This document shows, piece after piece, positions 3,776 to 28,006 of a DNA stretch of 32,088 nt. Below the pieces are notes generated by a model. That model saw only the letters and a list, made by a program, of their open reading frames with translations. It did no database searches and was not told where the DNA came from. A program made the position numbers and the translations under genes. Within the stretch, counting starts at the first letter, position 1, and each line of letters begins with the position of its first letter. The DNA is from Thraustochytrium aureum (lineage: Eukaryota), in the NCBI GenBank assembly GCA_012862495.1, contig BLSG01000211.1, positions 1-32,088 on the forward strand, read 5' to 3'.

Positions 3776-5318
3776 GTGTATGATCAATGATGCGGAAGCC
3801 CTTCCGTTTGGCGCACGGAAAGGGTTGTTTGCACCGCCAAACCTACTGGCCTTTGCTTCTCTGCGAGCAGGAGGGCGAGCTTACCGCTGCTGGGACGAGG
3901 CGGATGTGGCGGGCGCGCTGTACGCCTGTCGTCGCGCCCTGCTGCTGTGCTACTGGAGCTAGTAGCGTGAAGGGCCGTTAGAGGAGGCGTTCCGCAGCTG
4001 AGGAACGCCTTGGCGCACCCTAACCTGGCGTGTCAACTCGCACATTCACACTTTTTGCGATGGCAATTGGACCGGCCAGAGCTCGAACGCTTCGAAGACG
4101 CGCTGCGCCAGCCGCGTCTGCTGCGCCAGCCGCGTCTGCTGTGCCTGCTGCCGGCGACCCCGCGCACGCAACGCAATGGAGGCCATTGACCGTTCNNNNN
4201 NNNNNNNNNNNNNNNNNNNNNNNNNNNNNNNNNNNNNNNNNNNNNNNNNNNNNNNNNNNNNNNNNNNNNNNNNNNNNNNNNNNNNNNNNNNNNNNNNNNN
4301 NNNNNNNNNNNNNNNNNNNNNNNNNNNNNNNNNNNNNNNNNNNNNNNNNNNNNNNNNNNNNNNNNNNNNNNNNNNNNNNNNNNNNNNNNNNNNNNNNNNN
4401 NNNNNNNNNNNNNNNNNNNNNNNNNNNNNNNNNNNNNNNNNNNNNNNNNNNNNNNNNNNNNNNNNNNNNNNNNNNNNNNNNNNNNNNNNNNNNNNNNNNN
4501 NNNNNNNNNNNNNNNNNNNNNNNNNNNNNNNNNNNNNNNNNNNNNNNNNNNNNNNNNNNNNNNNNNNNNNNNNNNNNNNNNNNNNNNNNNNNNNNNNNNN
4601 NNNNNNNNNNNNNNNNNNNNNNNNNNNNNNNNNNNNNNNNNNNNNNNNNNNNNNNNNNNNNNNNNNNNNNNNNNNNNNNNNNNNNNNNNNNNNNNNNNNN
4701 NNNNNNNNNNNNNNNNNNNNNNNNNNNNNNNNNNNNNNNNNNNNNNNNNNNNNNNNNNNNNNNNNNNNNNNNNNNNNNNNNNNNNNNNNNNNNNNNNNNN
4801 NNNNNNNNNNNNNNNNNNNNNNNNNNNNNNNNNNNNNNNNNNNNNNNNNNNNNNNNNNNNNNNNNNNNNNNNNNNNNNNNNNNNNNNNNNNNNNNNNNNN
4901 NNNNNNNNNNNNNNNNNNNNNNNNNNNNNNNNNNNNNNNNNNNNNNNNNNNNNNNNNNNNNNNNNNNNNNNNNNNNNNNNNNNNNNNNNNNNNNNNNNNN
5001 NNNNNNNNNNNNNNNNNNNNNNNNNNNNNNNNNNNNNNNNNNNNNNNNNNNNNNNNNNNNNNNNNNNNNNNNNNNNNNNNNNNNNNNNNNNNNNNNNNNN
5101 NNNNNNNNNNNNNNNNNNNNNNNNNNNNNNNNNNNNNNNNNNNNNNNNNNNNNNNNNNNNNNNNNNNNNNNNNNNNNNNNNAAGGCAGCCCCGCTCGTCA
5201 GTACTCGTCAAATGGTGGATGCCACGGGCATCCCGGGCCCACGGGGCTCGGGGTCGGCCCGCTCGCACGGCGGCTCGGCTCCGAGCCGGCCGCCTTTTCC
5301 CCTGCCAACGCTCGCCGC

Positions 5319-6356
5319 TCAGGCAGACTCCTCGGCCTCCGGCTCCGCCTCGACCTGCTCCGCTTCCGGCTCCGCCGCCTCCTCTTCGTCATCAAGGTCG
5401 GCGTCCGGCCCGTCGGGGTAGACGACAAACTTGTTGATGAGCTCCTCGGCGTTGCCGGCCGCGGTGATGCCCGCGGTCACCGCCTCCATGGCCGCAAGGT
5501 GGGCGAAGACCTCGCCCACGGTGAACTGCTTGGCCAAGAACGCCGGAAGCATGCCCTTGAGGAGCGTGTGGCAGAGCACGGTGGCCTCGCAGCCCTCGAC
5601 CTCGGACTTGCCGCCCATGAACGAGGACTTGGTCACCGTCTTGGGCTTGAACTGCACGCCAAACAGGAGCACCGCCGAGCGCACGGCGCCGGGGACGGCC
5701 TTGGCAGGGATGTTGCCCTCGACCGACTTGGCGGCCACCGTGATGGTGCCGTCCTCGGCCTCCTCCCAGGTCTGGAAGAGCGCTACGTCGCGGAGCGCAA
5801 TCATGGAGGGGCCAAAGTTCTTCACCTGGTGGAACAGCGAGGTCTTGCCGCCGCGGAACGTGTAGTGCTCGCGCATGTACACGAGCGAGGGGTCGCACTG
5901 CCCGTTGAACTCGGCGCGGATGTGCGTCAGCAAGGCCATGCGAGGGGTCACGGGGACGTCCTTTTTAATGCGGAGGAGCGCGACGCCCTTCTCGGCGCGG
6001 TCGGAGCTGACCTCGACGGTGCCGCCGCTCTTGGACGAGGGGGCCTCGAACGCGCCGCCCTGCACGAGGTCCTTGACTTGGTTCATGGCGGTCTTGGCGA
6101 CCTCGTCCCAGGCCATGCTCTCGCCCGAGCTCAGCTTGAGCGTGCGCGGCACTCGCGAGGCCTTCTCCCAAAAGTTGTACCACTTCTTGCTCGAGGCGAG
6201 CTGGACGTCCTGGCCGGCGGCGTGCACCTTCTCAAAGCCGGCCTTCGAGAAAACATTGGCGTGCTTGGCGTGCTCGGCGCGGGCCTCCTGCAGGTTGGCC
6301 TTGGCCGCGAGCAGCGACCGCCGCCTGTCCTCCACAACCGCGAGCTCGTCGCCCAT
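5319..6356 (-). CDS. START/SRPBCC-like lipid-binding domain protein with an acidic C-terminal tail
   Basis: 345 aa with strong GC3 bias. START-like segments: MIALRDVALFQTW, DGTITVAAKSVE, PGAVRSAVLLFGVQFKP, CEATVLCHTLLKGMLPAFL. Just upstream, CTGAT...AAG|ATG could be an intron acceptor, so an upstream exon is possible. Confidence 0.75.
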   Translation of the reverse strand: MGDELAVVEDRRRSLLAAKANLQEARAEHAKHANVFSKAGFEKVHAAGQDVQLASSKKWYNFWEKASRVPRTLKLSSGESMAWDEVAKTAMNQVKDLVQGGAFEAPSSKSGGTVEVSSDRAEKGVALLRIKKDVPVTPRMALLTHIRAEFNGQCDPSLVYMREHYTFRGGKTSLFHQVKNFGPSMIALRDVALFQTWEEAEDGTITVAAKSVEGNIPAKAVPGAVRSAVLLFGVQFKPKTVTKSSFMGGKSEVEGCEATVLCHTLLKGMLPAFLAKQFTVGEVFAHLAAMEAVTAGITAAGNAEELINKFVVYPDGPDADLDDEEEAAEPEAEQVEAEPEAEESA

Positions 6357-12706: not shown

Positions 12707-13456
12707 ATGATGTCTAAGGCAAGCAACGCCGCCGGGCTCAAGCTGTCGCTTGGGAGGCTTGCGGAGGTGCGGCCGGAGCTGGCCGGGCAAAAGACGATAC
12801 TGTGCGGCATGGTGGATGTGACGCCTTCCAAAGTGCTGGAACGGAGGGTGCACGGCAAGTCGGTGCGGAACTGGCGCAGGCTGCTGAGCCAGTACCTGAG
12901 CGATGGCCAGTGCGCCCCGGCGGTGGTGATCCGTCGGGACAGCGACTCGTTCATTGTGTCCGCGTACTCGAACGACTTTGACGCTGTCGTTATGCTGCGC
13001 TTCCCGAGCTCGCTCGAGCTCGCGCACGACCTCGCGCTGGGGTCGCGCCTGCTCGCCGTCAACACATACGTGGACATGTCGTACTGGCTCGCCGAAGACA
13101 TCACCCCAGGCGATCAAGTGTTCCAAGGATGCAGGTGGGGCAACTTTGAGCCAATCATTGCAGACTTTTTGTCTTCGCAGACCGACAAGCTGGCACTGGC
13201 CAAGCGCAAGATCGACCCTGCGCTCTGGCGCCGCACCGAGACCCTCGGCCGCGAGTATTTGCAAAACCGCTCGGGCTGGGTTCGCGACGGCCGCCCAGGG
13301 TACGCTATCCACCCGCGCAATGAGAAGGGCATGTCCATGGACAGCCGAACCGTCGAGGCGATCAAAGACTCGATGCACGGCCCGGAAGACGAGTCTGGAA
13401 GGGTGCGGCTTTCGACGGCGTCGACGGCGTCGTCGTTGACAAACATCAAAATGTAG
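12707..13456 (+). CDS. Hypothetical globular protein, 249 aa
   Basis: ATG-initiated intronless ORF with natural composition and conserved-looking motifs (PAVVI, VSAYSNDFDAVVMLRFP, GSRLLAVNTY, WGNFEPIIADFLS, RDGRP). Function not recognised. Confidence 0.7.
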   Translation: MMSKASNAAGLKLSLGRLAEVRPELAGQKTILCGMVDVTPSKVLERRVHGKSVRNWRRLLSQYLSDGQCAPAVVIRRDSDSFIVSAYSNDFDAVVMLRFPSSLELAHDLALGSRLLAVNTYVDMSYWLAEDITPGDQVFQGCRWGNFEPIIADFLSSQTDKLALAKRKIDPALWRRTETLGREYLQNRSGWVRDGRPGYAIHPRNEKGMSMDSRTVEAIKDSMHGPEDESGRVRLSTASTASSLTNIKM

Positions 13457-13701
13457 GGCCTGCCTGCCTGCCGGCCGGCCAGCCCTCGCCAAGTCACCCT
13501 GCTTGAGATGCTTGAGAATAAGAGCCGCGCCAGGGCCACGGCGCCTCTCGATTGCCACGGCGCCTCTCGATTACCATATTTCCAACGATTCGGATACCCC
13601 ACCCAGCTTGCAAAAACAACCCCCCTTCGCTGTTCTCGTTTCGCTGCGTTGCGCTTTGGCGGCTTGAACCTCGCCGGCGCAGCAGCTCCTGCGTCCTGGG
13701 G

Positions 13702-14259
13702 TCACGCGTTCATCATCATCTTGATGTACTCGGCGTAGTGAAAGTGCCCGCTAGAGTCCGTCTCGAGGTGGCGCATGAGGTCCTGGATCTGGTCCGTGCT
13801 GATCGTCTCGCGCGAGCAATACTCTGTGAGCGCGTCCTCGAGCGCCTGCAAGGGGATCGTGCCGTTGTTTGTGGTCGAGAAGAGCCGAAAAGCGTTGCGC
13901 ACCTGGTCAGCCGTGTACGTTGCGCTTGCCTTGCGCGACATTACTTCGACAAACTCCTCAAAGTCGATCTCGCCGTTCGAGTCCTGGTCAATCTCGTTGA
14001 TCATCAGGTCAATCTCCTCTTGCGTCGCCATGATGCCGAGCGTGTCCATCAGCTCGCCGAGCTCTTCGTTCGATATCGACCCGCCGCCGTCGCGGTCCAC
14101 CAGGTTGAAGATCTCCCTGTACTCGCTCAGCTCCTCTTCGCTCAGCTCGTTGGCGGTCACGGTCGTAAACTTGCCGTTCGCGGAGGCGGCGTCAGCGGCG
14201 GCCGCCTCTTCGGCCCGCTCGTCAGCCTCCCCAGCGCTCGCCGTCTCCACAGCCTCCAT
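13702..14259 (-). CDS. Calmodulin-like EF-hand protein, resembling outer-arm dynein light chain LC4
   Basis: Canonical EF1 (DRDGGGSISNEE) and EF2 (DQDSNGEIDFEE), degenerate EF3 and EF4. The segments EYREIFNLVD and MSRKASATYTADQVRNAF recall flagellar LC4 (from memory). Start is ATG 14259; an alternative in-frame ATG is at 14436. Confidence 0.85.
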   Translation of the reverse strand: MEAVETASAGEADERAEEAAAADAASANGKFTTVTANELSEEELSEYREIFNLVDRDGGGSISNEELGELMDTLGIMATQEEIDLMINEIDQDSNGEIDFEEFVEVMSRKASATYTADQVRNAFRLFSTTNNGTIPLQALEDALTEYCSRETISTDQIQDLMRHLETDSSGHFHYAEYIKMMMNA

Positions 14260-14912
14260 CTCGTCGTGCTCTCGCTGTCGCTCCGCGTTTGGGGCGTTGC
14301 CGCCTGAGCCGCGACGACGACGTGGGCGTTTACAACGGCTCTCCCTTCCGTCAACAACCTCCCCGTTGTCGCGTGAAAGCGCGGCGGCGTTTACCTGGCA
14401 CGCCAGCAAAAACAGGCCGATGGCGCCGAGCGCCATAGGCGGCCAGGCACTTTCGCAAGCCGTGTAGCGAGCTCTGTGCCGCGTGCACGGGCTTCCCAGA
14501 CGTCCGAGCAACCCAGCAACGCGAACGAAAGCGGCAAACACGCCGTGGGCCTGCGCTGCCACGGCATCCTGCAGAGCGAGCCCTCCGCCACGCAGCGAGC
14601 CCAGCCCTGCACGACATCGGCGACATCGGCGCAAGGCGGCTCGCGGCGCGCAAAACGACCTCGAGGGCAGGTTGTGGGCCAGAATATCGAGTCGCGCTGC
14701 CGTCCGGCACAGGTTTCTCCCGCCAAGACCCAGAGCGTCGCCAACGCTCCTGGCGCCCAAGAGCATACGGACTTGCTGCGTCCCGCTCCTCAGGCGCCGG
14801 TGCGGTCCTTGGTCGACGTGCGGCGCCTCGGCGCAAGGGACCTGAATGCTAGCAAAAAAACGAAGAAAGCATTTGCTTCAGGAGGGAATTGAGGACTTCA
14901 GGGTGCCGTGGA

Positions 14913-15954
14913 TCAGGGCGTCGAGGACAACGGGGTCGAGGACGACGGGGTCGTAGCCCCACGCCTCGCGCGTTTTGCTTCGTAAAGGCGGTCGCCGACT
15001 GGAACACACGCTGGGTAGGGGATCTGGGGCATGGAATGCCAAATGTCCCAGCAGGTCCTCTTTGCCATCTTGCAGAGCGGGACGTCGCAGACCGAGCACT
15101 TGTACGCAGTTTGGGCGGGATCGCGGACGCCGTGCGTTGTCTTCGTGTCGCAGCTTTTGCAACACACGACGCATCGGAACCTCTTCTGTCCGCGCTCGGC
15201 CGTAATTGTGTGCTCGGCAGACTTGTCGAGGCGCAATCGAACCATGGACGGATCCGTATTCGCGTGCTGCAGTCGACGCCTCTTCGGCTTGACGAACGCA
15301 GACCCAGTGGAACTTGGGACCAAAGGTCTAGCGCTGACCACGTCCATGGGGGGCGGTGTGTCTGTCCGAAAGCGCTTTGCGTTGATCTCCCTCAGCTCGT
15401 GTATTTTCGCCAAGAGTGGTTGCGGCTCGTCGAGGCCTCTCCAGAGCTTGAACAAGAAAGATCCAAAAGTCTCCGTACGGCGGCGGGCCGCAGCGAGTTC
15501 CCGAAACGTCTTGAAGCTGTCGAGGTCTGCCCGGAGCCTGTCCAACTGGTACACTCTGAATGCGTTGTAGAGAATGTAGCCAAAGTGAGCCATCCAGAGC
15601 TGCTGAACAGGCTTTCCAACGTCGTACTTGGACTTGCTCCCGTTGACAGCCTTCCGCAAGAGGTCCAGGTTTCCCATGCACTTGCTCCACCACATGGGGA
15701 GCTCGGGAATGAGGTTTGAGCACGGTGGTGGCGTCCCATGCTCTGCAACATCTGCAGCGAAAACCCGAGCGAGCTGAACGAACGTCTCCAAAGTGTGGTG
15801 CTCATGGGCGAAAGCGTAGACGTCAGAGTGGTCGGACCCGATGCGTGGCACCGGCTCGGGGGTCTCGGCGAACATGAAACTCATGTACTCGTCTTGAAGA
15901 AAGGACAGAAGCGCCAGCCAGTTCCGGCGGCAGTCCTCCGAGAGGCGAACAAGG
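14913..15954 (-). CDS. Transposase piece 3: third catalytic Asp and piggyBac-type C-terminal Cys-rich domain
   Basis: IPELPMWWSKCMGNLDLLRK...QQLWMAHFGYILYNAFRVY resembles piggyBac P....YN..MGGVD..DQ......W...lf.......NA..LY. RCVVCCKSC...TAYKCSVCDVPLC...CWDIWH resembles the piggyBac CRD zinc ribbon. KPKRRR is a possible NLS. Confidence 0.78.
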
Positions 15955-16081
15955 NNNNNNNNNNNNNNNNNNNNNNNNNNNNNNNNNNNNNNNNNNNNNN
16001 NNNNNNNNNNNNNNNNNNNNNNNNNNNNNNNNNNNNNNNNNNNNNNNNNNNNNNNNNNNNNNNNNNNNNNNNNNNNNNNNN

Positions 16082-16908
16082 ACGCACTGCTCGGCCCCAG
16101 AAGGGCTGGCGAAGACCACAAGCGTGTAGTTCAATCCAAGAACTGCAGCGCTGTGAACGACCTGCGTTCGGAAGGACGGGTCCGGCACCGCCGCAGCAAA
16201 CGCAGCGGTCCCTGCGTCGCACACCACCTCTTTCGATTCACCGATTCGCTCGCGCAGCTCGGCGATTGTCCGCGGGGTGGTCGCGGTCTTGATCTTGATT
16301 GCGACCAGACCGACGTGCGAGTTGTCCACACGCGTCAGATAAGCAACGGCGTCCGGGGAGGTTGCGGCAAACCGTACTTTGCGATCGCATACGACACCAT
16401 ACTCTCGCAGGTTCGCCCTGAGCATTCGGTACGAGGTGTGCTTTTGAAGGAAAGCGCTCAGACCTTTCACGATGGTCGATTCGTTCGCAGAGCCGATGTG
16501 GAGGGGACGTTTTGACTTGTCGCTGCCGGGCTGGAACGGGCGCATGAACCAGCGTCGCACCATGAGTTGGAGGAAGCACCGCTGTCGCTCTCCACGGCTG
16601 AGCGGGCCAGAGTTCTGACTCGTGCTCACGTAGGTCGTCTGGGTGAAGGGAAGGTCCTCGTCGTCGCTGCCATCAGCGGACCCGAGCGAAAGCCTGCCGT
16701 CGTCAATGCTAGCCCCAGAGGTCCTGGCCGCGTCTGTGTCCGTGCCAGCATCCGCAAGAGGCGCGCCGGCTTTCTCAGCCTCGAACGCCGCGATCTGTTC
16801 GGCCAGTTCCTTTCTGGTGCATTTCTCCGAGCGTTGGAGGTTGCGCTGAGCGGCGGCTTCAGCAAGTGCTGGTTTGCTCTTTCCCATCCAGTACTTGCTG
16901 CTGGTCAC
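16082..16908 (-). CDS. Transposase piece 2: SAP/HeH-like motif, acidic linker and YqaJ (PD-(D/E)XK) exonuclease core
   Basis: LHIGSANE (G...E), LREYGVV, FAATSPDAV (SPD), VAIKIKT (ExK motif with E replaced by K), FRTQVVHSAAVLG (Q motif). Confidence 0.7.
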
Positions 16909-18536
16909 GTTGCCACGGCGTCCGCGACTCGGGCCGACGTACGCCTGCTCTTGGAGGGGGCCGTATTCGCGTCAAGGTTCTCGATGTTTTCTATCGACGC
17001 AGCGTTTCCCAGCGCGGCCTGGATAGGAGGGTTCAGTTGAGCAATGCCTTTGACGATGCCGTGTAGCCTCCGCGCTTCATTAGTGTGGAAGTAGGGCGAG
17101 CCCTCGCAGCTGAACGCGGCGTGCGTGTCCGTGCTCGATGAGCGGAACATGCGCGCCAAGTACCAATCCGGTGTGCCCTGCTCAAGCGTGAGACGGAAAA
17201 TCCTGGACTCCATGTCCTGAAATGCCACGTTCGCGTCCTGGACGTTCGCGTTGTAGGCCGGGGGCGCGGCGTTGGCGACACGTTTGACGCCACCCGGCTC
17301 GCTGCTGCTGATGCCAGCGCTTGTCTCGAAGGCCCATGCGTGGCCATCGAATTCTTGACGTGTGGTGATGAGCAGGGCACATCGCGGCATACCCTGGCCG
17401 TGTCGAGCCATCACAGCTCGGACACCCGTCGACCGCTCATTTGCAACGAATACGGCCCGCTTGCCATTCTGGCTCACCAGGGCCTGTTGGCCAGCGGTCG
17501 GCGCCTCTGGCGCACGCTCGGTTGCCAGGAACGGGAACGCCCTAGTCGCTTTGCAGGTTCCCAGGACCCGGACTCCGAGGCGGCCGAGCATCTGGACGAT
17601 GTTTGTGCCTTCGGCAGCGTCCTTCTGCTTTGCAAGTGCAAGGTGCTCGCGATCAATGAAGGCGAGCAGCGAGTTGCCGCGACCTCCGAGCTCGGTCGCC
17701 TTCGAGACGTTGTATAGGCCCAGAAAGAGTTGTTCCAACGACGAGCAGGGCGGGTTGCCCATTTGGTCGACGGACCCACCGAGAATCAGCCCCGTGGAGA
17801 CACTGGCCAATAGATGGACGACTGGCTTGGGCTTCTCGTCCTTTGCCGGCGTGCGCTCGGTGCCATAACTTGCCCAATCTTTGGCTGTGTGGGGGAGCTT
17901 GTCGTCGTCGCAGTCGACCCACGTGGTGCCCTCGACGAAAAACAACCCAGACCAATGCCTGCGGCATACTTCCTGAAGCTTTGCCACAATGGGCGACTCT
18001 GTGAGCGGCGCAGACCCCACATCCTCCAGAGGCGTTTCTGTGTAGTGCTCAGACACCTCCACCGCCTGAACTAGCCCCTGCACCTTCGCATGCGTGTCAC
18101 AGTCGTTGGGCTCGCCTCGAAAGCCCCCTTCGCGAACGCCCACGTAGTACCCTTTAGCGGATTGGCCATGGTAGCGCATGGCGATCTCGACGCGCAAGTA
18201 GGCGATGATCTCGAGGAACGACGCCGAGTTCCCAAGCCAGCCGGCAAACTCGACCAAAAACCTCGGGGGCAGTGCAGCTGCAAAGGCATCCAAAGCCGAC
18301 ATCTGGACACCGCCGACCAGGTTGTGCTGCTCGCGAACCCTGCTGACCACAGTCCTGGCTTCCGCATTGAACTTTGCCAAAAGCCCTGCATCAGCAGGGT
18401 TGTACCGGAGCTTGACTCTGTCCAATCCGACGACTGAGCCGTGAAGGTTGCCATGAAACTGGCTTCCTTCGTTGCTGTACGAGTCAAACGTCCATCGGCG
18501 GCCTTGGCTTTGCCCTTCCAGCCCTTCGTCAGCCTC
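16905..18536 (-). CDS. Transposase piece 1: piggyBac-like N-terminal and catalytic region (D1, D2) plus the start of the YqaJ domain
   Basis: LFFVEGTTWVDCDDDKLPH, KPVVHLLASVSTGLILG, LLAFIDREH and VRVLGTCK parallel the piggyBac DE, K...GY, DNxF and GT(V/I)R motifs. LEQGTPDWYLARMFRSSST matches the YqaJ N-terminal pattern QgT.eW...R...iTaS. Confidence 0.65.
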   Translation of the reverse strand, partial: EADEGLEGQSQGRRWTFDSYSNEGSQFHGNLHGSVVGLDRVKLRYNPADAGLLAKFNAEARTVVSRVREQHNLVGGVQMSALDAFAAALPPRFLVEFAGWLGNSASFLEIIAYLRVEIAMRYHGQSAKGYYVGVREGGFRGEPNDCDTHAKVQGLVQAVEVSEHYTETPLEDVGSAPLTESPIVAKLQEVCRRHWSGLFFVEGTTWVDCDDDKLPHTAKDWASYGTERTPAKDEKPKPVVHLLASVSTGLILGGSVDQMGNPPCSSLEQLFLGLYNVSKATELGGRGNSLLAFIDREHLALAKQKDAAEGTNIVQMLGRLGVRVLGTCKATRAFPFLATERAPEAPTAGQQALVSQNGKRAVFVANERSTGVRAVMARHGQGMPRCALLITTRQEFDGHAWAFETSAGISSSEPGGVKRVANAAPPAYNANVQDANVAFQDMESRIFRLTLEQGTPDWYLARMFRSSSTDTHAAFSCEGSPYFHTNEARRLHGIVKGIAQLNPPIQAALGNAASIENIENLDANTAPSKSRRTSARVADAVAT

Positions 18537-18985
18537 NNNNNNNNNNNNNNNNNNNNNNNNNNNNNNNNNNNNNNNNNNNNNNNNNNNNNNNNNNNNNNNN
18601 NNNNNNNNNNNNNNNNNNNNNNNNNNNNNNNNNNNNNNNNNNNNNNNNNNNNNNNNNNNNNNNNNNNNNNNNNNNNNNNNNNNNNNNNNNNNNNNNNNNN
18701 NNNNNNNNNNNNNNNNNNNNNNNNNNNNNNNNNNNNNNNNNNNNNNNNNNNNNNNNNNNNNNNNNNNNNNNNNNNNNNNNNNNNNNNNNNNNNNNNNNNN
18801 NNNNNNNNNNNNNNNNNNNNNNNNNNNNNNNNNNNNNNNNNNNNNNNNNNNNNNNNNNNNNNNNNNNNNNNNNNNNNNNNNNNNNNNNNNNNNNNNNNNN
18901 NNNNNNNNNNNNNNNNNNNGCCTGGCCTTGACTGCGGCGGCCTGGCCTTGACTGCAGCCGTGGCGGCGCGGCGCGGGCGGCGGCG

Positions 18986-20765
18986 ATGATGAGGAACAGG
19001 GCGAAAGGGCGCGCCAAGGGCGCGGCGGCGGACAGGTCGTGGAGCTCGACGAGCGAGGATGAGTTTGGTGAGGCTGGCGGTATGAGCTCGGCGACGGCGT
19101 CTGAGGACGAGTCGCAGGAGGAAGGGAGCGCGAGCGCCGGGAAGGCGTCGTGGGCGAAACGCGTCGCGAGGCGAGGCGCCGCGAGGGAGGGCAATCAGCT
19201 GGGGGTGACGCTGAACGGGCAGCGCGTGTTTGCGCTTCCGAAAACGACCTCGCACCTGCAGAGTCTCTTCGCCAAGTGGTACTCGCCCCCCGCGCTCGTG
19301 GCCTGGGCCGGGATCGCGGTCTCGGCGTTTGCCTTTTTCGCGTTCGCAGAGTATCCCGTCGTGATCCTCGTGGTGGCCGTTTTTTGGCGACTCTGCTACA
19401 ATCTGGGCGTCGGCGTGCTCCTCAAGCGGCAGAGCGAGAGCGGATTTCTGACCGCATGGATCATCGCGCTGCGCGAGGACCCGTTCGGGACGCGCAACAC
19501 GGTTTGGAGCTCTGTCCTGCGCAAGACCATGCCCGACAACCGCGACGTCCTCAACGACAACACGCTCCCGGCCTCGTTCCCGGCCTGGATCGCGTTTCGC
19601 AGCATCGTCAATATTGTCGAGAGCAACGACGTGGTGGCTTTTACGCTCACCGCCATCCGGTTTGGCCTGGCCGAGCGCGAGCGCCACCTGCAGTTCTCTT
19701 CCTCGTCGGGGTTTCCGCTTCTTGCCACGCTGAGCCCGCTGGCAGACCTGACGGGCCTGCTGCTCATTTGCCTCAGCCTCTACAGCAAGGTCGCGGCGCG
19801 GCGCACGGCGGGCGACTACGCCTGGTACTGGGGCGACTTTTTCTTCCTGCGGACCGGATCCGTCGAGCTCTCCTTCGACGGCGTTTTCGAGCTCTTCCCG
19901 CACCCGATGTACACGGTCGGCTACGGCTGGACGTACGGCTGCGCGATCCTGGCCCGCTCCTTTTCGGTCCTGGCCTGCGGCATGGCCTTCCACCTCTCGC
20001 AGCTTCTCTTCCTCACCCTTGTGGAGGTCCCTCACGTCGAAAAGCTGTACGGGACCCCCGCGGCGACGGGGCGGCCGCCCAGCTCGCCGAGTGGCGAGCT
20101 GCCGGCCTCGCTTCGCGCCGAGATCGGGCCGGCTGGCGACGAGGTCTCACCCATGACGCCAGACAGCGTCGACGGTGCTTTCTCGGACCAGCTCGAGCAG
20201 GACCAGGCCAACGTGTTTGTGATCAAGAACTTTGACATGTTTCGCGCCTCGGACATCAACTTGGCGCTCTCGCTGGTTTTCTTTGTGTTTGCGATGCAGG
20301 TTGGCTCGTTTCCTGGGGGCCCGCTTGACGACGACCGATTCTTCATCCTGCAGGCCGTGCTCTGGCACGTGGTCTCTTCCCTGCTAAAGTCGGTCATCCT
20401 GGTGGGCCAGGAACGCACCAAGTTTTGGACGCGCCACTTCGTCAAGATGGGCCGCGGCCGCCAAGACGCCTTCGAGTCCTGGAAGCGGATCTACAACATG
20501 CTGCAAAGCTTGCAGCATGTGGCCTTCTTCCTCTGCGCGGCGCGGCTGTTTTCCATGCCGCAGACCTGGCTCGAGTGCCTGCGTCCCGAGTACCTCTCGC
20601 AGCAGTTTTTGGGCATCATGCTGGTCCTCATCTCCGTGTGGTCTTTCTCTTCCTGCTACAACGTGTTGGGCGACTATGGGTGGTTTTACGGCGACTTTTT
20701 CCTCCCGCCGCCGCAGGTGGCCGAGCTGGCGCGAGCGCGCCGCCGCGCCTTGGTCGAAGACCGCG
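18986..20765 (+). CDS. CHO2: Cho2-type phosphatidylethanolamine N-methyltransferase (two PEMT-like units); 3' end in an assembly gap
   Basis: Multi-TM protein with GDYAWYWGDFFF, LSFDGVFELFPHPMYTVGY and EVPHVEKLY, plus a second unit LGDYGWFYGDFF. These are hallmark motifs of fungal Cho2/Pem1. Confidence 0.88.
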
Positions 20766-21120
20766 NNNNNNNNNNNNNNNNNNNNNNNNNNNNNNNNNNN
20801 NNNNNNNNNNNNNNNNNNNNNNNNNNNNNNNNNNNNNNNNNNNNNNNNNNNNNNNNNNNNNNNNNNNNNNNNNNNNNNNNNNNNNNNNNNNNNNNNNNNN
20901 NNNNNNNNNNNNNNNNNNNNNNNNNNNNNNNNNNNNNNNNNNNNNNNNNNNNNNNNNNNNNNNNNNNNNNNNNNNNNNNNNNNNNNNNNNNNNNNNNNNN
21001 NNNNNNNNNNNNNNNNNNNNNNNNNNNNNNNNNNNNNNNNNNNNNNNNNNNNNNNNNNNNNNNNNNNNNNNNNNNNNNNNNNNNNNNNNNNNNNNNNNNN
21101 NNNNNNNNNNNNNNNNNNNC

Positions 21121-21642
21121 AAGGACGATTTTCTGAGCGAGTCTGCAGAGCACATCGTGCGCGAGCTGCACAAGCGCGGCCTCGCGCACGCGGACGCGGT
21201 CATTTCGGGCTTGCCGTGGGCCATCTTCCCGTCTTCGCTGCAAGAGTCGATCCTGGACCAGGTCTACGCGTCGTTGCGCCCTGGGGGGCGCTTTTGCACG
21301 TTTGCCTACCTGCAAGGCCTCGTGCTGCCCGCGGGCCAGAACTTTAAGGCGTTGCTCGACCGCAAGTTTCACCGCAAGGTCGAGCGCTCGCACATCGTGT
21401 GGAAAAACCTTCCGCCTGCTTTTGTTTACGCTGCGAAAAGGCTGCGGAGGCGCGGTAGGCGAGATGCCAAACCACAGCAGGGCCGCACGCCACGGAGAGA
21501 GCGCAGGGCCCGTCAAGGGGCGCCGGGCACGTTTGTCGCGTACGCGGCTGCCGCCGCAAAGTGGGTCCTGCCTGAAAATATACGTGCCTATGTCAGTACA
21601 GCGCAAGTAGCATTCACCCAAAGCCAAAAAGCAAGTCCATAG
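21121..21642 (+). CDS. C-terminal half of a bacterial-type phospholipid N-methyltransferase (PmtA, class I SAM fold); 5' end in the gap
   Basis: DAVISGLPW, ILDQVYASLRPGGRFCTFAY and VWKNLPPAFVY are characteristic of Agrobacterium/Sinorhizobium-type PmtA proteins. Confidence 0.82.
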   Translation, partial: KDDFLSESAEHIVRELHKRGLAHADAVISGLPWAIFPSSLQESILDQVYASLRPGGRFCTFAYLQGLVLPAGQNFKALLDRKFHRKVERSHIVWKNLPPAFVYAAKRLRRRGRRDAKPQQGRTPRRERRARQGAPGTFVAYAAAAAKWVLPENIRAYVSTAQVAFTQSQKASP

Positions 21643-24272: not shown

Positions 24273-27200
24273 CTACAGCAAGGCTCGACCGTCGACACTG
24301 GTTTGTCCACTCGCTTGCGGGTACGACCTGCGCGGCACGAGCTCCAGTAAGCAGGCCTGATGCGAGCCGTCGAAAAGGAATGCGACCGATCCATCTGCAG
24401 CCATGACACTCGATTCGACACTCGAGTCACAAGAGAACCCCGCCACAAGTGCGTCGCTCACGGCGAGGCCGGAAACGGTGCTCCCAGCAACCTTGAGCGC
24501 CGGCTCGCCAGGAAACTCGCAGTTCCCGTCGATATCCTCGGCACGGAAACCCTCCGCTCGCTCGCCGGATCCAACCCACCATGCCAGAACGTGGCCAGCC
24601 GTGTCTCGCGATACCAGCAACTGGTCTTCGCACTGAAGAGAAACGTAAGCGACAGCGCGTGTGTGGCCCTCGAGACAGCGAACTTGCTGCCCGGTGCTGC
24701 CGTCCCAAACGCGCACGGTATTGTCCCAGCCGCCTGAAACAACTCGCTTGCCATCGCACGACAACGTCACGGCGGACACCCAGGCTGTGTGGCCTCTCAT
24801 GCAGCAGAGTTCCGCGCCCGTCTTCGCGTCCCAAACTCGCACCGTTTTATCCAAGCTCCCCGAAGCGAGTCTCCGACCGTCGCGCGAACGGGCCACGGCC
24901 CAAACGCTCTGCGTGTGTCCCTCGGGCCGGCGCATCTCCTGGCGACCGTGGGCGTCCCACACTCGCACGGTCTTGTCCCCGCTTCCTGACACGATACGAC
25001 GGCCGTCGCTCGAAAGGACAACGGCGGACACCCACGCAGCATGGCCTTCGAGACAACAGACCTCCCTGCCCGTATCGGCGGCCCAGACTCGCACAGTTTT
25101 ATCCAAGCTCCCTGATACGATTCTTTGGCCGTCACGCGAGATGGCCACGGCCCACACGTTTTCTGTGTGCCCTGCAAGGCAAAGCAGCTCCTGGGCAGTC
25201 TTGGCATCCCACAATCGTACAGTCTTGTCGCCGCTTCCCGAAACGATCTGCTGGCCGTCAGAAGAAAAGGCCACAGCAGACACCCACGCAGTGTGGTTCT
25301 TGAGGCAGTAGAGCTCCTGGCCCGTGTGGGCGTCCCAAACTCGTACGGTCCTGTCCAAGCTGCCAGATGCGATTCGCGTGCCGTCGCAAGACATGGCCAC
25401 TGTCCACACGTTATCCGCGTGGCCTTCGAGGCGATGCAGCTGCTGGCCAGTGTTTGCGTCCCAGACGCGCACCGTCCTGTCCAAGCTGCCCGAAACGACG
25501 CGCTCACCGTCTTGCGAAAGGGCCACAGCATTCACTGCCAGGCAGTGTCCTTCCAGGCGCCACACCTCGCGGCCGGAGTGAGCGTCCCATACCCGGACGG
25601 TTTTGTCTTGGCTGCTGGACACGATTCGCTGGCCGTTACTGGACAGCGCCACGGCGCTCACCCTGGCCGTGTGCCCCTCCAGGCGGCGCAACTCTTGACC
25701 GGTATTCGCATCCCAGACGCGCACCGTTTTGTCGTCGCTGCCAGACACAATGCGCTGGCCGTCGCTGGAAAGTGCCACAGCGTTCACCTCCCGCGCGTGC
25801 CCCTCAAGGACCTTGCGCAGAGGGTCGCTTGCGGGAGTCAAGGTCGCCCGTACGGGGCGCAGCCAGCCGAATTCGGGGTGCTGAAAGGCGTGCGCTTGCT
25901 CGGCGAGCGGGTGGTCCTCGGGAAGGCGGCCGATGAGCTGGCCGGGCAGCTCGCGCCAGTCGCGGTCGACCGCATTCAGGCTTTTCNCGAGGGCGCGCAC
26001 GGCGAGCTTGGCGTCGTCATGGAGCCCGTCGGCATTCTTGACGTCTTGCACAAGCTGCGCGGTGGCGCCGCCCTTGGCGATCATCAGGAGTACGCCAAGG
26101 TCAAGCACGTTGGCGGCCGCAGCCTCCCCTTGGCCGCTTTTCACGAGGTGGAACACCAGGTTGCGAGCGGTGAAAGGGGATTCCCTGTTTGGCCCAGCTT
26201 CGAGCGCCTGCGCAAGCCGCGCGTGACTCTGCTTCGCGTCTACCCCAGTGGCTCGCTCTGCTCAGCCTTGCCAGCTCCCTTGTCGTTCAAAAGAAATTCT
26301 CCCATCGACTTGTGGACAAAGGAGACGGCGTTCTCGCGCACGTCGAGCAAAACGCTTGCCTTGCGCAAAAGGGCCTTCAGCTCGGTCATTTCCACAACGC
26401 CGAGCAGCTCGCCTGCCACGGTGAGCGGGAGCGGCTCGCGAGCAACGGCCATGCCGCCGAGCAGGGCGCGATGCATTTCGAGATCGCCCGCGAGCGGGCC
26501 TTTCAAGAAACGCGAAAAGTTGCTGCGGTACGTTTCATGGAGGCAGTCCGGGAAGGTGTCGAGGTCATGCTGCAACTCTGTCAGGGTCACGGTTCTGGCT
26601 TCGTGCTCTGCGAGCCGCTCGACGATGCAACGCGCGTACAAGAACGAACCGTTGGCGTGGTCTTCCAAAAGACGCGTTGCTCGCGTCAGATCTCGTTCAC
26701 GGTTCTGCAGGCTGCGCATAACGTTGGCGCGCAGGTATTGCCTGACGTCCTCAGCGTTGCCCGCGTCGTCGATCCGGAAGACGCGCGGCTGGAACTTGTC
26801 AAGCGCATCTCGAATCGTGTCGTCCGGCCGCGACGAGACCAAGAGGCTCAGCCACCTCGGGGCGTGTTCGGCCCACTCGTTCTCGATGATCTGGACCATC
26901 GCGGTTTTGTCGAGAGTGTCGACCTCGTCGAGTGCATCCAAAACAACAACGACGCTCTGCTCTGGAGCACGGACAGCGTTGCAGGGCCCAGCGATGATTG
27001 CTCGGAAAAGGCCGCACAAGTCGGTGGTGGCGTCAAGCGCGCTCTGCTCAAGTTGACGAAGCTCCTCCTCGAGGCCCGGAATGACGCTGGCGAGCTGATT
27101 GGCGAGGGAGTAGAGGCAGGTTCGCGCGCTGGCCGCGCTCGCGTCGTCGAACTTGAAAAAGTGCGCCGCGCCGACCACGAACGATCCGGAATTGGCAGCC

Positions 27201-28006
27201 TCCCGTCGACTCTGGCCAAGACCGTCTCGATTCAAACCATGCTTTTCGATGGCCCTGGGCTTGCTGAGCAGGCCGCCATCGTGGCAGATTTTGGCCAGTA
27301 AAACGGACTTGCCAAACCCGAGCGGACCAATCAGCACCAGCACGTGGTGCTCTTTAATGTCGTCGACGAGCCCATTTTTGTGCCAGCGACGCACGTCTTC
27401 AAGGGTCGACTGCCGCGTCCCCTCTGCGTAGGCAAGATACTTGAGCTGCGCCGTGAGAAGCGGGTTGAAGCAAGTCGGAAGCGCGAAGATCCCAATTTGC
27501 TGCGTCGGGAGCACCTCATTTGGCGCTGCACGATGGCGCTTTATTTCGGACCTGGCCTTGCCCTCGATCACCTCGGCCAGACTTTCCATGGATGCATCAA
27601 AGCCATCCACGCTAAGCTTTTGAAATAGTGGTTCCTGTTCCAGAAAGGCTTCGACGTTGCCATTCCAGGGGCGGGGGCCGGTCTTGCGTAGAGCGTCCGC
27701 GGGTACAAGGGGCACAATCCAACCAGCTTTGTCCTTGGCGGCGTGCTCAACCTCGCGCTTGCAATATGCGCTGTCTCCTCCATCGTTGAATTTGCGAGTG
27801 TACTCGTTCGCCAGGAGCGCAATAACAGTGTCCGCGCCGTCCTGCGCGATGAACTGCTCGGCCGCCCCGCTGCCCGAGCGTCCAAGCCGCCCGGTCCAGC
27901 CCTTCGCCCTCGCCATCCATCCCACTAATGCCTCGACAACCTCCGTGGCCGCCTGCCCGTGCACGACTGACTCAACATCGTACAAAACCACGACAGTGAG
28001 CGCCAT
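24273..28006 (-). CDS. NLR-like STAND protein: TIR-like domain, NACHT-type NTPase, helical domain and WD40 repeats; one frameshift at 26243-26246
   Basis: ATG 28006. TIR-like VVVLYD...VIALLANEY...SAYCKREVEHA...IVPLV. Walker A GPLGFGKS (27305-27328), Walker B VVVVLDALDE (26924-26953), VSSRPD, GSFLYA, FVHKS. Adding one base to CCCC joins PLG-VDAKQSHARLA...NLVFHL into the WD40 ORF. Confidence 0.9.
24549..25808 (-). repeat. Coding tandem array of 126-nt (42-aa) WD40 repeats: 9 canonical plus 1 degenerate
   Basis: Consensus LEGHxxxVxAVAxSxDGxRIVSGSxDKTVRVWDAxTGxE, with exact 126-nt spacing from 25808 to 24674. Confidence 0.93.

What the first reader, a model, noticed from the sequence alone, without database searches (positions are those of the whole stretch)
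14913..18536. piggyBac-like transposase with a lambda-exonuclease (YqaJ) domain nested inside its DDD catalytic core
Seen, in order on the minus strand: acidic N-terminus; D1 (CDDDK); D2 (FIDRE); GTCK; YqaJ motifs (EQGTPDWYLARMFRSSST, GSANE, EYGVV, TSPDA, AIKIKT, RTQVVH); D3 (WWSKCMGNLD) with YNAFRVY; and the Cys-rich domain (RCVVC...KCSVCDVPLC...CWDIWH). About 1200 codons are visible. Established: piggyBac transposases are about 600 aa, with an insertion domain between the 2nd and 3rd Asp and a C-terminal CRD. YqaJ nucleases accompany other DNA transposon groups such as ISL2EU, there as a separate protein. Inference: a single two-nuclease polypeptide in which a 5'-3' exonuclease fold occupies the insertion domain. 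It could resect donor or target ends and couple transposition to recombinational repair. The interleaved order argues against two adjacent genes. I cannot exclude that it belongs to a divergent piggyBac group already in Repbase.
Basis: partly seen in the sequence, partly recalled or inferred. Interest (0 to 1): 0.86.

Follow-up and report, generated by a model that had tools for sequence, protein, structure and literature searches.

The report
PiggyBac-like transposase with built-in exonuclease
This protist gene is a copy of a jumping-gene enzyme family in which a whole domain predicted to fold like the DNA-end-chewing exonuclease of phage lambda sits inside the cutting core of a piggyBac-type transposase; the extra nuclease would likely steer repair of the empty donor site, but this particular copy has likely lost that activity.

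Summary
Observation confirmed. The three pieces are one gene: a contig of a public run keeps the frame at the A/B break and crosses the 127-N gap with no letters listed between. A search found 119 relatives; 17 of the 18 over 1000 aa have the order D1, D2, beta insertion domain, YqaJ/lambda-exonuclease (usually split by a SAP-like piece), D3, cysteine-rich domain. An AlphaFold model of the closest relative (pLDDT 86) superposes on piggyBac transposase across the insert (Z 24.5) and on whole lambda exonuclease within it (Z 12.7). Correction: the exonuclease follows the retained insertion domain and does not replace it. Named hosts are stramenopiles and Plasmodiophora. Most relatives keep both active sites; this copy keeps DDD but has K at the nuclease glutamate and shows no terminal repeats, so it is probably immobile. 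My best mechanism, resection of donor ends to favour homologous repair, is inferred only. Ten literature searches found no description; identity with Repbase piggyBacX could not be tested and is about even odds.

The parts
14913..18536 (-). Whole visible gene of the piggyBac-like/YqaJ transposase; its 5' end lies in the N run that begins at 18537
   Evidence: 1165 codons if break and gap are closed as in run X1
17949..18497 (-). N-terminal half of the dimerization/DNA-binding domain (T. ni 117-263 equivalent)
   Evidence: segment profile, aa 14-196 of P0001; family profile matches T. ni 130-247 weakly
17907..17909 (-). Catalytic D1 (T. ni D268 equivalent, inferred from motif and fold), intact
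   Evidence: D in 62 of 63 rows of A2 with a residue there
17652..17654 (-). Catalytic D2 (D346 equivalent, inferred), intact, but followed by REH where the family has RGY
   Evidence: D 53 of 57, G 50 of 57, Y 54 of 59
17319..17540 (-). Retained beta-stranded insertion domain
   Evidence: segment profile aa 333-406; strands 379-451 in the model of P0004
17028..17210 (-). Lambda-exonuclease/YqaJ N-terminal part with motif I (Q-x-T-x-D-W-x3-R)
   Evidence: family profile aligns to LHK-Exo 3syy 2-37, E 0.058; fold match starts at model 465
16938..16939 (-). One-base frame break in the window; absent in a contig of run X1
   Evidence: table 4; one contig, depth 3.7
16747..16917 (-). SAP-like helical segment, followed by an acidic low-complexity linker, inside the exonuclease
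   Evidence: BLAST to P0004 601-655; Pfam SAP in relatives P0060 6.6e-9, P0082 1e-7, P0112 1.6e-6, P0064 5e-6; the family SAP segment profile did not hit the window's piece
15759..16578 (-). Exonuclease core (G..NE, YG, SPD, ExK, RxQ), running across the N gap; the ExK glutamate is K here (16296-16294) and H851 is S
15955..16081 (.). 127-N gap; an X1 contig joins its two sides with no letters listed between
   Evidence: table 5; 93 letters on the short side
15663..15665 (-). Catalytic D3 (T. ni D447), intact; the N440 equivalent seven residues before it is S here
   Evidence: profile alignment to 6x67 433-506; D 21 of 24, N 21 of 25
15429..15662 (-). C-terminal half of the dimerization/DNA-binding domain (YNAFR helix)
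15036..15224 (-). Cysteine-rich domain
   Evidence: Pfam PF13842 zf-Tnp_2, E 1.6e-5, 25.8 bits against a cut-off of 24

Best explanation
This is a likely immobile, exonuclease-dead copy of a protist DNA-transposon family whose single ~1200-aa transposase is predicted to fold as a piggyBac-type DDD core with a complete lambda-exonuclease domain inserted between D2 and D3, and in intact members that domain would likely resect the 5'-phosphorylated donor ends left by excision. Shown: one conserved domain order in two deep clades; most relatives keep both active sites; the window copy keeps DDD and has K at the nuclease glutamate. Predicted: the RNase H core closes around the insert as in piggyBac. 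Inferred mechanism: the core excises through a hairpin as piggyBac does, leaving short complementary overhangs at the donor site. The tethered 5'-to-3' exonuclease sits next to the insertion domain, which contacts flank/target DNA in piggyBac. It would chew back those donor ends, block seamless religation and leave 3' tails, so the break is repaired from a sister chromatid or homolog that still carries the element. Cut-and-paste would then give a net gain of copies. The SAP-like piece would add non-specific DNA binding.
For: Architecture: 17 of 18 relatives over 1000 aa have all of D1D2, insertion domain, YqaJ motif I, YqaJ core, D3 and CRD in this order; P0006 lacks D3 and CRD. Of 123 proteins examined, 39 run 90 aa or more past the insertion domain and 38 of these carry motif I; 23 have the D3 segment and 22 of these have the YqaJ core, the exception being the window's own piece C. 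Locus L002 has the whole order in one 1248-codon frame with all catalytic motifs. Fold of P0004 (pLDDT 86.4, pTM 0.79): piggyBac 6x67 Z 24.5, rmsd 3.9, 379 aligned, model 92-1055; piggyBat 9c0f Z 21.6; lambda exonuclease 3sm4 Z 12.7, rmsd 3.9, 208 aligned, model 465-938 against chain 2-226; integrase cores span model 249-1015. Nuclease residues in A2: Q506 42 of 45, W511 44 of 45, R515 39 of 45, E737 25 of 26, D779 28 of 28 (one a misplaced tail of P0001), E802 24 of 28, K804 26 of 30, Q847 27 of 30. The hairpin-contacting Y439/N440 of piggyBac (PMC7351741, passages) align with W963/N964, 26 of 27 and 21 of 25. Lambda exonuclease digests the 5'-ended strand of dsDNA ends and leaves a 3' overhang (PMC3424549, table passage). 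Relatives look like transposons: a 16-nt inverted repeat near both ends of L004 (beat all 200 shuffles) and a shared CC(G/T)TA(C/G)TCC motif at 3 of 14 contig ends, after TTAG, TTAG or ATAT. This copy: 23 of 30 invariant exonuclease positions kept, against 25 of 28 and 21 of 24 in the two transposase parts; the K is also present in the X1 and X2 contigs, which list no difference there.
Against: No activity, expression or insertion polymorphism was observed; the mechanism is inference. The model is of P0004, not of the window's protein, and D-D distances could not be measured because coordinates are not provided. Lambda exonuclease works as a trimeric ring (recalled; the 1avq title says toroidal) and piggyBac as a dimer; I did not resolve this mismatch. 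Segment profiles were built from 18 of the proteins they were run on, and the query held motif I, so the counts are partly circular (20 of the 38 motif-I proteins were outside the training set, one of them the window's own). The terminal motif was drawn after the fact from two of its three hits, no locus gave both ends, and L002, L003 and the window showed no inverted repeat above chance. The frame evidence is one low-depth contig of one sample. The piggyBac RKTNRW stretch after D447 is not kept in the family profile. The window's 0.77 retention in the exonuclease equals that of P0012, which keeps all catalytic residues.
Confidence: 0.5

Rival explanations
1. The inserted domain works like Tn7 TnsA: it cuts the non-transferred strand at the element ends, replacing piggyBac's hairpin step.
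For: TnsA is a PD-(D/E)XK nuclease used in transposition (PMC3424549, passages). The insert is in nearly every long member and keeps its catalytic residues. The RKTNRW stretch is not kept. Putative target 4-mers are not TTAA.
Against: The hairpin-contacting Y439/N440 positions are kept as W/N. The best fold matches are end-loading exonucleases (lambda, LHK-Exo, R354), and motif I, recalled as the 5'-phosphate pocket, is conserved.
Confidence: 0.17
2. The exonuclease has a clean-up role: it trims flaps or overhangs at the integration site, or destroys abortive or competing linear DNA, without changing donor repair.
For: A similar clean-up role was proposed for the DEDDh exonuclease of KolobokD (PMC9587614, passage). 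The insertion domain of piggyBac lines the target channel, so the nuclease could face target DNA as well as donor flank.
Against: A processive 5'-to-3' enzyme is more than a 4-nt flap needs (inference). No direct evidence.
Confidence: 0.2
3. This particular copy is a domesticated host gene kept for DNA binding or DDD cutting, rather than a decaying transposon (compatible with the family architecture).
For: It sits between ordinary host genes (PEMT, calmodulin-like), 449 bases and about 650 bases away, with no terminal repeat or terminal motif seen. The frame is whole in X1, DDD is intact, and 6 of 12 coding differences from X1 are synonymous. Relatives P0016 and P0030 are full length with several catalytic residues lost.
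Against: GC at four-fold sites is 0.66-0.71 against 0.78-0.95 in seven of the eight neighbours scored in frame (the NACHT gene has 0.71), which fits a newer arrival. The window has a frame break. Twelve differences are too few to show selection. No orthologous locus was available.
Confidence: 0.3
4. The family is already catalogued as Repbase/Dfam piggyBacX (PiggyBac-X). This bears on novelty, not on mechanism.
For: Plasmodiophora brassicae has repeats classed DNA/PiggyBac-X (bioRxiv 10.1101/2025.07.30.667784, one passage) and encodes a member of this family (P0060). I recall, unverified, that piggyBacX is a protist subgroup with non-TTAA targets. An Atlas cluster of 56 members is mostly oomycete where the phylum is known.
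Against: No held paper contains 'piggyBacX' or links piggyBac to YqaJ. Public names of members are 'hypothetical protein' or 'SAP domain-containing protein'. The class label in P. brassicae was not tied to this gene.
Confidence: 0.5
5. The order is an artefact: separate genes, a nested mobile YqaJ element, or a mis-joined scaffold.
For: The window has a frame break and an N gap inside the YqaJ region. No X1 contig spans the whole gene.
Against: Single proteins of 1043-1391 aa from JGI, Logan, ENA, NCBI and EukProt, and one 1248-codon ORF, have the same order with the insert at the same place.
Confidence: 0.01

Closest known systems
piggyBac superfamily transposases (T. ni piggyBac PDB 6x67/6x68; piggyBat 9c0f; Pfam PF13843, PF13842)
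   Same: Acidic disordered N-terminus, split DNA-binding domain, DDD triad in the same motifs, beta insertion domain, Y439/N440 equivalents, C-terminal CRD; best fold match, Z 24.5.
   Different: About twice the length (mean 500 aa in PMC13461360, passage); a ~470-aa exonuclease/SAP insert before P433; RKTNRW not kept; putative termini CC(G/T)TA(C/G)TCC after TTAG or ATAT rather than TTAA. A survey of 13,693 subfamilies reported N- and C-terminal fusions, with no 'exonuclease' in the text or 'YqaJ' in the readable supplements (one picture-only file was not searchable).
Lambda exonuclease / YqaJ family (PDB 3sm4, 1avq; LHK-Exo 3syy; mimivirus R354 5yet; Pfam PF09588)
   Same: The whole fold, chain 2-226, aligns at Z 12.7; motif I, E, PD, ExK and Q are conserved in relatives.
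   Different: It is embedded in a transposase and split by a SAP-like segment and acidic linker; Pfam YqaJ hits stay below the cut-off (best E 0.001); oligomeric state unknown; this copy lacks the ExK glutamate.
KolobokE
   Same: A eukaryotic DDD/E DNA transposon with a lambda-exonuclease-like nuclease (PMC9587614, passages).
   Different: Another transposase superfamily (C/DxxH signature), and the nuclease lies downstream of the transposase domain, not inside it.
ISL2EU
   Same: Carries a YqaJ exonuclease of unknown function (PMC4122938, PMC4482050, passages).
   Different: PIF/Harbinger-related transposase; YqaJ is in a second ORF.
Repbase piggyBacX / Dfam PiggyBac-X
   Same: The class label occurs in P. 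brassicae, a host of this family.
   Different: Unknown: no sequence or description was available to me.

Membership tests
piggyBac superfamily | RNase H-like DDD core with D268/D346/D447 equivalents | tested here: met
   fold shown on relative P0004; all three D are present in the window
piggyBac superfamily | Beta-stranded insertion domain after the fifth strand | tested here: met
   strands 379-451 in the model; an extra domain follows it
piggyBac superfamily | C-terminal cysteine-rich domain | tested here: met
   PF13842 above cut-off in the window
piggyBac superfamily | Pfam DDE_Tnp_1_7 match | tested here: inconclusive
   none for the window's pieces; above cut-off in 2 of 24 relatives, P0110 2.4e-10 and P0057 1.4e-6
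piggyBac superfamily | Terminal inverted repeats of 12-19 bp starting with C | tested here: inconclusive
   none seen in the window, whose upstream flank is largely N; subterminal inverted 16-mer in L004 and a CC-starting end motif in L001, L002, L004
piggyBac superfamily | TTAA target site duplication | tested here: inconclusive
   no TTAA in window 13400-19300 outside the N runs; 4-mers at putative ends of relatives are TTAG, TTAG, ATAT, and no locus has both ends; rare ATAG/ATAT sites are reported for piggyBac (PMC5381638, passage)
piggyBac superfamily | Hairpin-mediated seamless excision | not testable with these tools
   only the Y439/N440 equivalents could be checked
YqaJ / lambda exonuclease | Lambda-exonuclease fold | tested here: met
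   Z 12.7, rmsd 3.9, 208 aligned on the model of P0004; best BFVD hit an exonuclease, E 2.6e-5
YqaJ / lambda exonuclease | PD-(D/E)xK catalytic residues in the family | tested here: met
   E802 24 of 28, K804 26 of 30, D779 in all rows with a residue
YqaJ / lambda exonuclease | PD-(D/E)xK catalytic residues in this copy | tested here: not met
   K at the glutamate
YqaJ / lambda exonuclease | Ring-shaped trimer and processive 5'-to-3' activity | not tested
   no complex prediction was run; activity needs the bench
KolobokE | C/DxxH-type DDE transposase with the exonuclease downstream | tested here: not met
   the core is piggyBac-type DDD and the nuclease lies between D2 and D3
ISL2EU | YqaJ in a separate ORF beside a Harbinger-type transposase | tested here: not met
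   one ORF
Repbase piggyBacX | Sequence similarity to Repbase piggyBacX consensus proteins | not testable with these tools
   Repbase/Dfam not available; no held paper describes the group

The most novel reading that the evidence does not exclude
An undescribed, widespread protist branch of piggyBac in which one polypeptide both excises the element and resects the donor ends, forcing homologous repair that restores the donor copy: the transposase itself turns cut-and-paste into copy gain. It would also show that a whole 470-residue enzyme can be built into the piggyBac core at the end of the insertion domain.
Probability: 0.28. Interest if true: 0.85.

Novelty: new variant of a known kind. Interest (0 to 1): 0.62.

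Why it matters
The role of YqaJ nucleases in eukaryotic DNA transposons (ISL2EU, KolobokE) is unknown; PMC4482050 says so for ISL2EU. A family with the nuclease inside a structurally understood transposase, with intact members at hand (P0004, P0008, the L002 ORF), makes the question testable with single mutations in a standard piggyBac-type assay. It bears on how cut-and-paste elements with seamless excision gain copies. It also points to a natural site, just before T. ni P433, where piggyBac may tolerate a large domain, which is of interest for engineering. The window's own copy is a poor reagent because its nuclease is probably dead.

Tried and rejected
Word-index protein searches with P0001 found nothing; with alignment A1 they found 8 proteins, 7 of them already known. 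No relatives in viral contigs or prokaryotic genome contigs. Single-sequence fold of P0001 was unusable, pLDDT 32, and single-piece PDB sequence searches gave nothing significant. PHROGs and NCBIfam gave only weak single-member hits, among them RecE-like exonuclease E 0.004 and TIGR03033 E 0.02. An intron at the A/B break was considered: a GT at 16942 has nearby AG ends that give 42, 45 or 49 nt, none of which restores the frame (read), whereas the X1 extra base does. No RNA holder was listed, which says nothing on expression. CpG decay as a cause of the substitutions was not supported: o/e 1.08 against 1.06-1.33 in neighbours. Summed contig depths in X1 are similar over the gene and its flanks but are not a copy number. 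No whole genome is held, so other copies and empty sites could not be sought. TnsA is not in the fold list, which does not exclude it. A trimer prediction of the exonuclease was not run. Literature: ten searches found no description of the nested form; the Kojima review (10.1266/ggs.18-00024) is not held and the supplement of PMC5381638 could not be read; both may bear on piggyBacX.
Full report
Setting. The window is GC-rich eukaryotic DNA with long uninterrupted ORFs and ten N runs. The gene lies between a calmodulin-like gene and a phospholipid methyltransferase gene. No whole genome is held. A protist host is inferred from the named relatives below.

Observation. The gene is in three pieces: A ends at a stop at 16905, B is in another frame, and 127 N separate B from C. 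A public DNA run, X1, holds this locus with about 1% differences. One contig has an extra base behind 16938 that puts A and B in one frame. Another joins 15954 to 16082 with no letters listed between. Each rests on one contig of depth about 4 from one sample. The intact relative P0004 has the spacing an empty gap predicts. Closed in this way the visible gene has 1165 codons. A loose end in X1 shows an acidic-codon trinucleotide run continuing upstream, which fits the acidic N-termini of relatives.

Family. Pfam sees only the cysteine-rich domain in the window's pieces. A phmmer search of 1.84 billion representatives with piece A gave 119 proteins at E up to 0.001, 47 up to 1e-10 and 20 up to 1e-30. 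Eighteen are longer than 1000 aa and align over their length. With segment profiles built from these 18, run on 123 proteins: 17 of 18 have the full order; 38 of 39 proteins that run 90 aa past the insertion domain carry YqaJ motif I (the exception, P0119, still has the YqaJ core); 22 of 23 with the D3 segment have the YqaJ core, the exception being the window's own piece C. The test is partly circular, as stated in the Against line. Among 24 relatives Pfam gave DDE_Tnp_1_7 above cut-off in 2, SAP above cut-off in 4 and YqaJ below cut-off in 4. Of 30 clusters looked up, named sources are Hondaea fermentalgiana (2), Skeletonema menzelii (2), Thalassiosira oceanica, Phytophthora fragariaefolia and Plasmodiophora brassicae; Skeletonema dohrnii appears; the rest are unnamed. 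The Atlas has one unnamed eukaryotic cluster of 56 members at score 0.98. A tree of the N-terminal part of 29 proteins splits them into clades of 18 and 11 rows (100/99 support); the window's protein is an unresolved branch in the larger one, and both clades carry the insert. No relative was found in viral or prokaryotic collections.

Structure. The window's protein could not be folded whole, so I folded its closest relative P0004 with an 85-row alignment: mean pLDDT 86.4, pTM 0.79. Foldseek ranked piggyBac first, then Tn5 and lambda exonuclease. Structural alignment gave piggyBac 6x67 Z 24.5 (rmsd 3.9, 379 aligned, model 92-1055 against chain 117-517), piggyBat Z 21.6, and lambda exonuclease Z 12.7 (rmsd 3.9, 208 aligned, model 465-938 against chain 2-226); integrase cores span model 249-1015. 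One superposition thus covers both sides of the insert, which is the prediction that D3 completes the RNase H core; I could not measure distances. The family profile finds T. ni piggyBac at E 4.6e-9 and its C-terminal match starts at P433, the published end of the insertion domain (PMC7351741, passages). Beta strands at model 379-451 show that domain is kept. So the exonuclease is added after the insertion domain, and is itself split by a SAP-like segment and a disordered acidic linker (model 557-705).

Active sites. In alignment A2 the three aspartates and the nuclease residues are strongly conserved (counts in the For line). The window's copy keeps D1, D2 and D3, but has K for E802, S for H851, EH for GY after D2 and S for N964. 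Against positions invariant in nine intact relatives it keeps 25 of 28, 23 of 30 and 21 of 24 in the N-terminal, exonuclease and C-terminal parts; intact relatives score 0.82-1.0, 0.77-1.0 and 0.86-1.0, and the degenerate P0016 and P0030 score 0.50-0.87. So it is mildly degenerate, most clearly at the nuclease centre.

Element ends. Seven metagenome loci were found. L002 has one 1248-codon frame with all motifs; L003 and L004 have the same order over several frames. L004 has a perfect 16-nt inverted repeat at 74-89 and 5847-5862 that beat all 200 shuffles; L002, L003 and the window had none above chance. A motif CC(G/T)TA(C/G)TCC lies within 100 nt of 3 of 14 contig ends, reading inward, after TTAG (L001, L004) or ATAT (L002); 0 of 20000 shuffles reached 3, but the motif was defined from these hits. 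It is absent from the window. These are hints of transposon ends, not a demonstrated target duplication.

Mechanism. piggyBac leaves complementary 4-nt overhangs at the donor site and its insertion domain contacts flanking target DNA. Lambda exonuclease resects 5' ends to leave 3' tails. A tethered copy of that enzyme would most simply resect the donor ends and push repair to homologous recombination, restoring the donor copy. I give this 0.5 together with the reading of this copy; the architecture alone I put at about 0.95. Rivals are TnsA-like second-strand cutting (0.17) and clean-up of overhangs (0.2). For this copy, domestication (0.3) competes with slow decay.

Known and new. YqaJ nucleases occur in ISL2EU as a second ORF and in KolobokE downstream of the transposase. 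A survey of 13,693 piggyBac subfamilies reported terminal fusions and does not mention an exonuclease in the text or readable supplements. Ten searches found no nested form. I read passages only of PMC4122938, PMC9587614, PMC13461360, PMC7351741, PMC5381638, PMC4482050, PMC3424549, PMC5718144, PMC12477816, PMC13565253, PMC8728181 and bioRxiv 10.1101/2025.07.30.667784, plus supplement searches of PMC13461360 and PMC9587614. The main caveat is Repbase piggyBacX: the label occurs in P. brassicae, a host of this family, and I could not see what it encodes. Eight earlier notes of this scan describe the same architecture in at least three other genomes; they are leads, not support. Verdict: real, a new variant of piggyBac-type transposons, interest 0.62.

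Noticed in passing
window 24273-28003 (minus strand): NACHT/NPHP3_N domain followed by a WD40 array with a regular 126-nt period (8 copies), an NLR-like (HET-E-type, name recalled) gene, with a single N at 25987. Its NACHT part has the same low four-fold GC (0.71) as the transposase.
   Followed up: partly
proteins P0016 and P0030: Full-length family members that have lost several catalytic residues in both domains; candidates for domesticated genes. P0016 shares three substitutions with the window's copy (G340E, E802K, N964S).
   Followed up: partly
L002:4984-5068 and 4663-4785: A hairpin with 31-nt arms just inside the putative right end, and 26- and 29-nt direct repeats.
   Followed up: no
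L004:5570-5663; L003:7-49 and L005 upstream flank: Three to four tandem 25-26-nt subterminal repeats in L004; a palindrome at the start of L003 and a 31-nt motif shared by L003 and L005 in opposite orientation.
   Followed up: no
window 17863-17931 and 15048-15186: Run X1 holds other contigs, one of 3937 bases, that match only the D1 motif or the CRD region; those at D1 look like further, divergent family members in that sample.
   Followed up: no
window 18986-21400 (plus strand): Two-domain phospholipid methyltransferase gene interrupted by a 354-N run, followed by a further open stretch with no Pfam match.
   Followed up: no
window 12707-13456 (plus strand): A 249-aa ORF with host-like codon bias and no Pfam match.
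   Followed up: no
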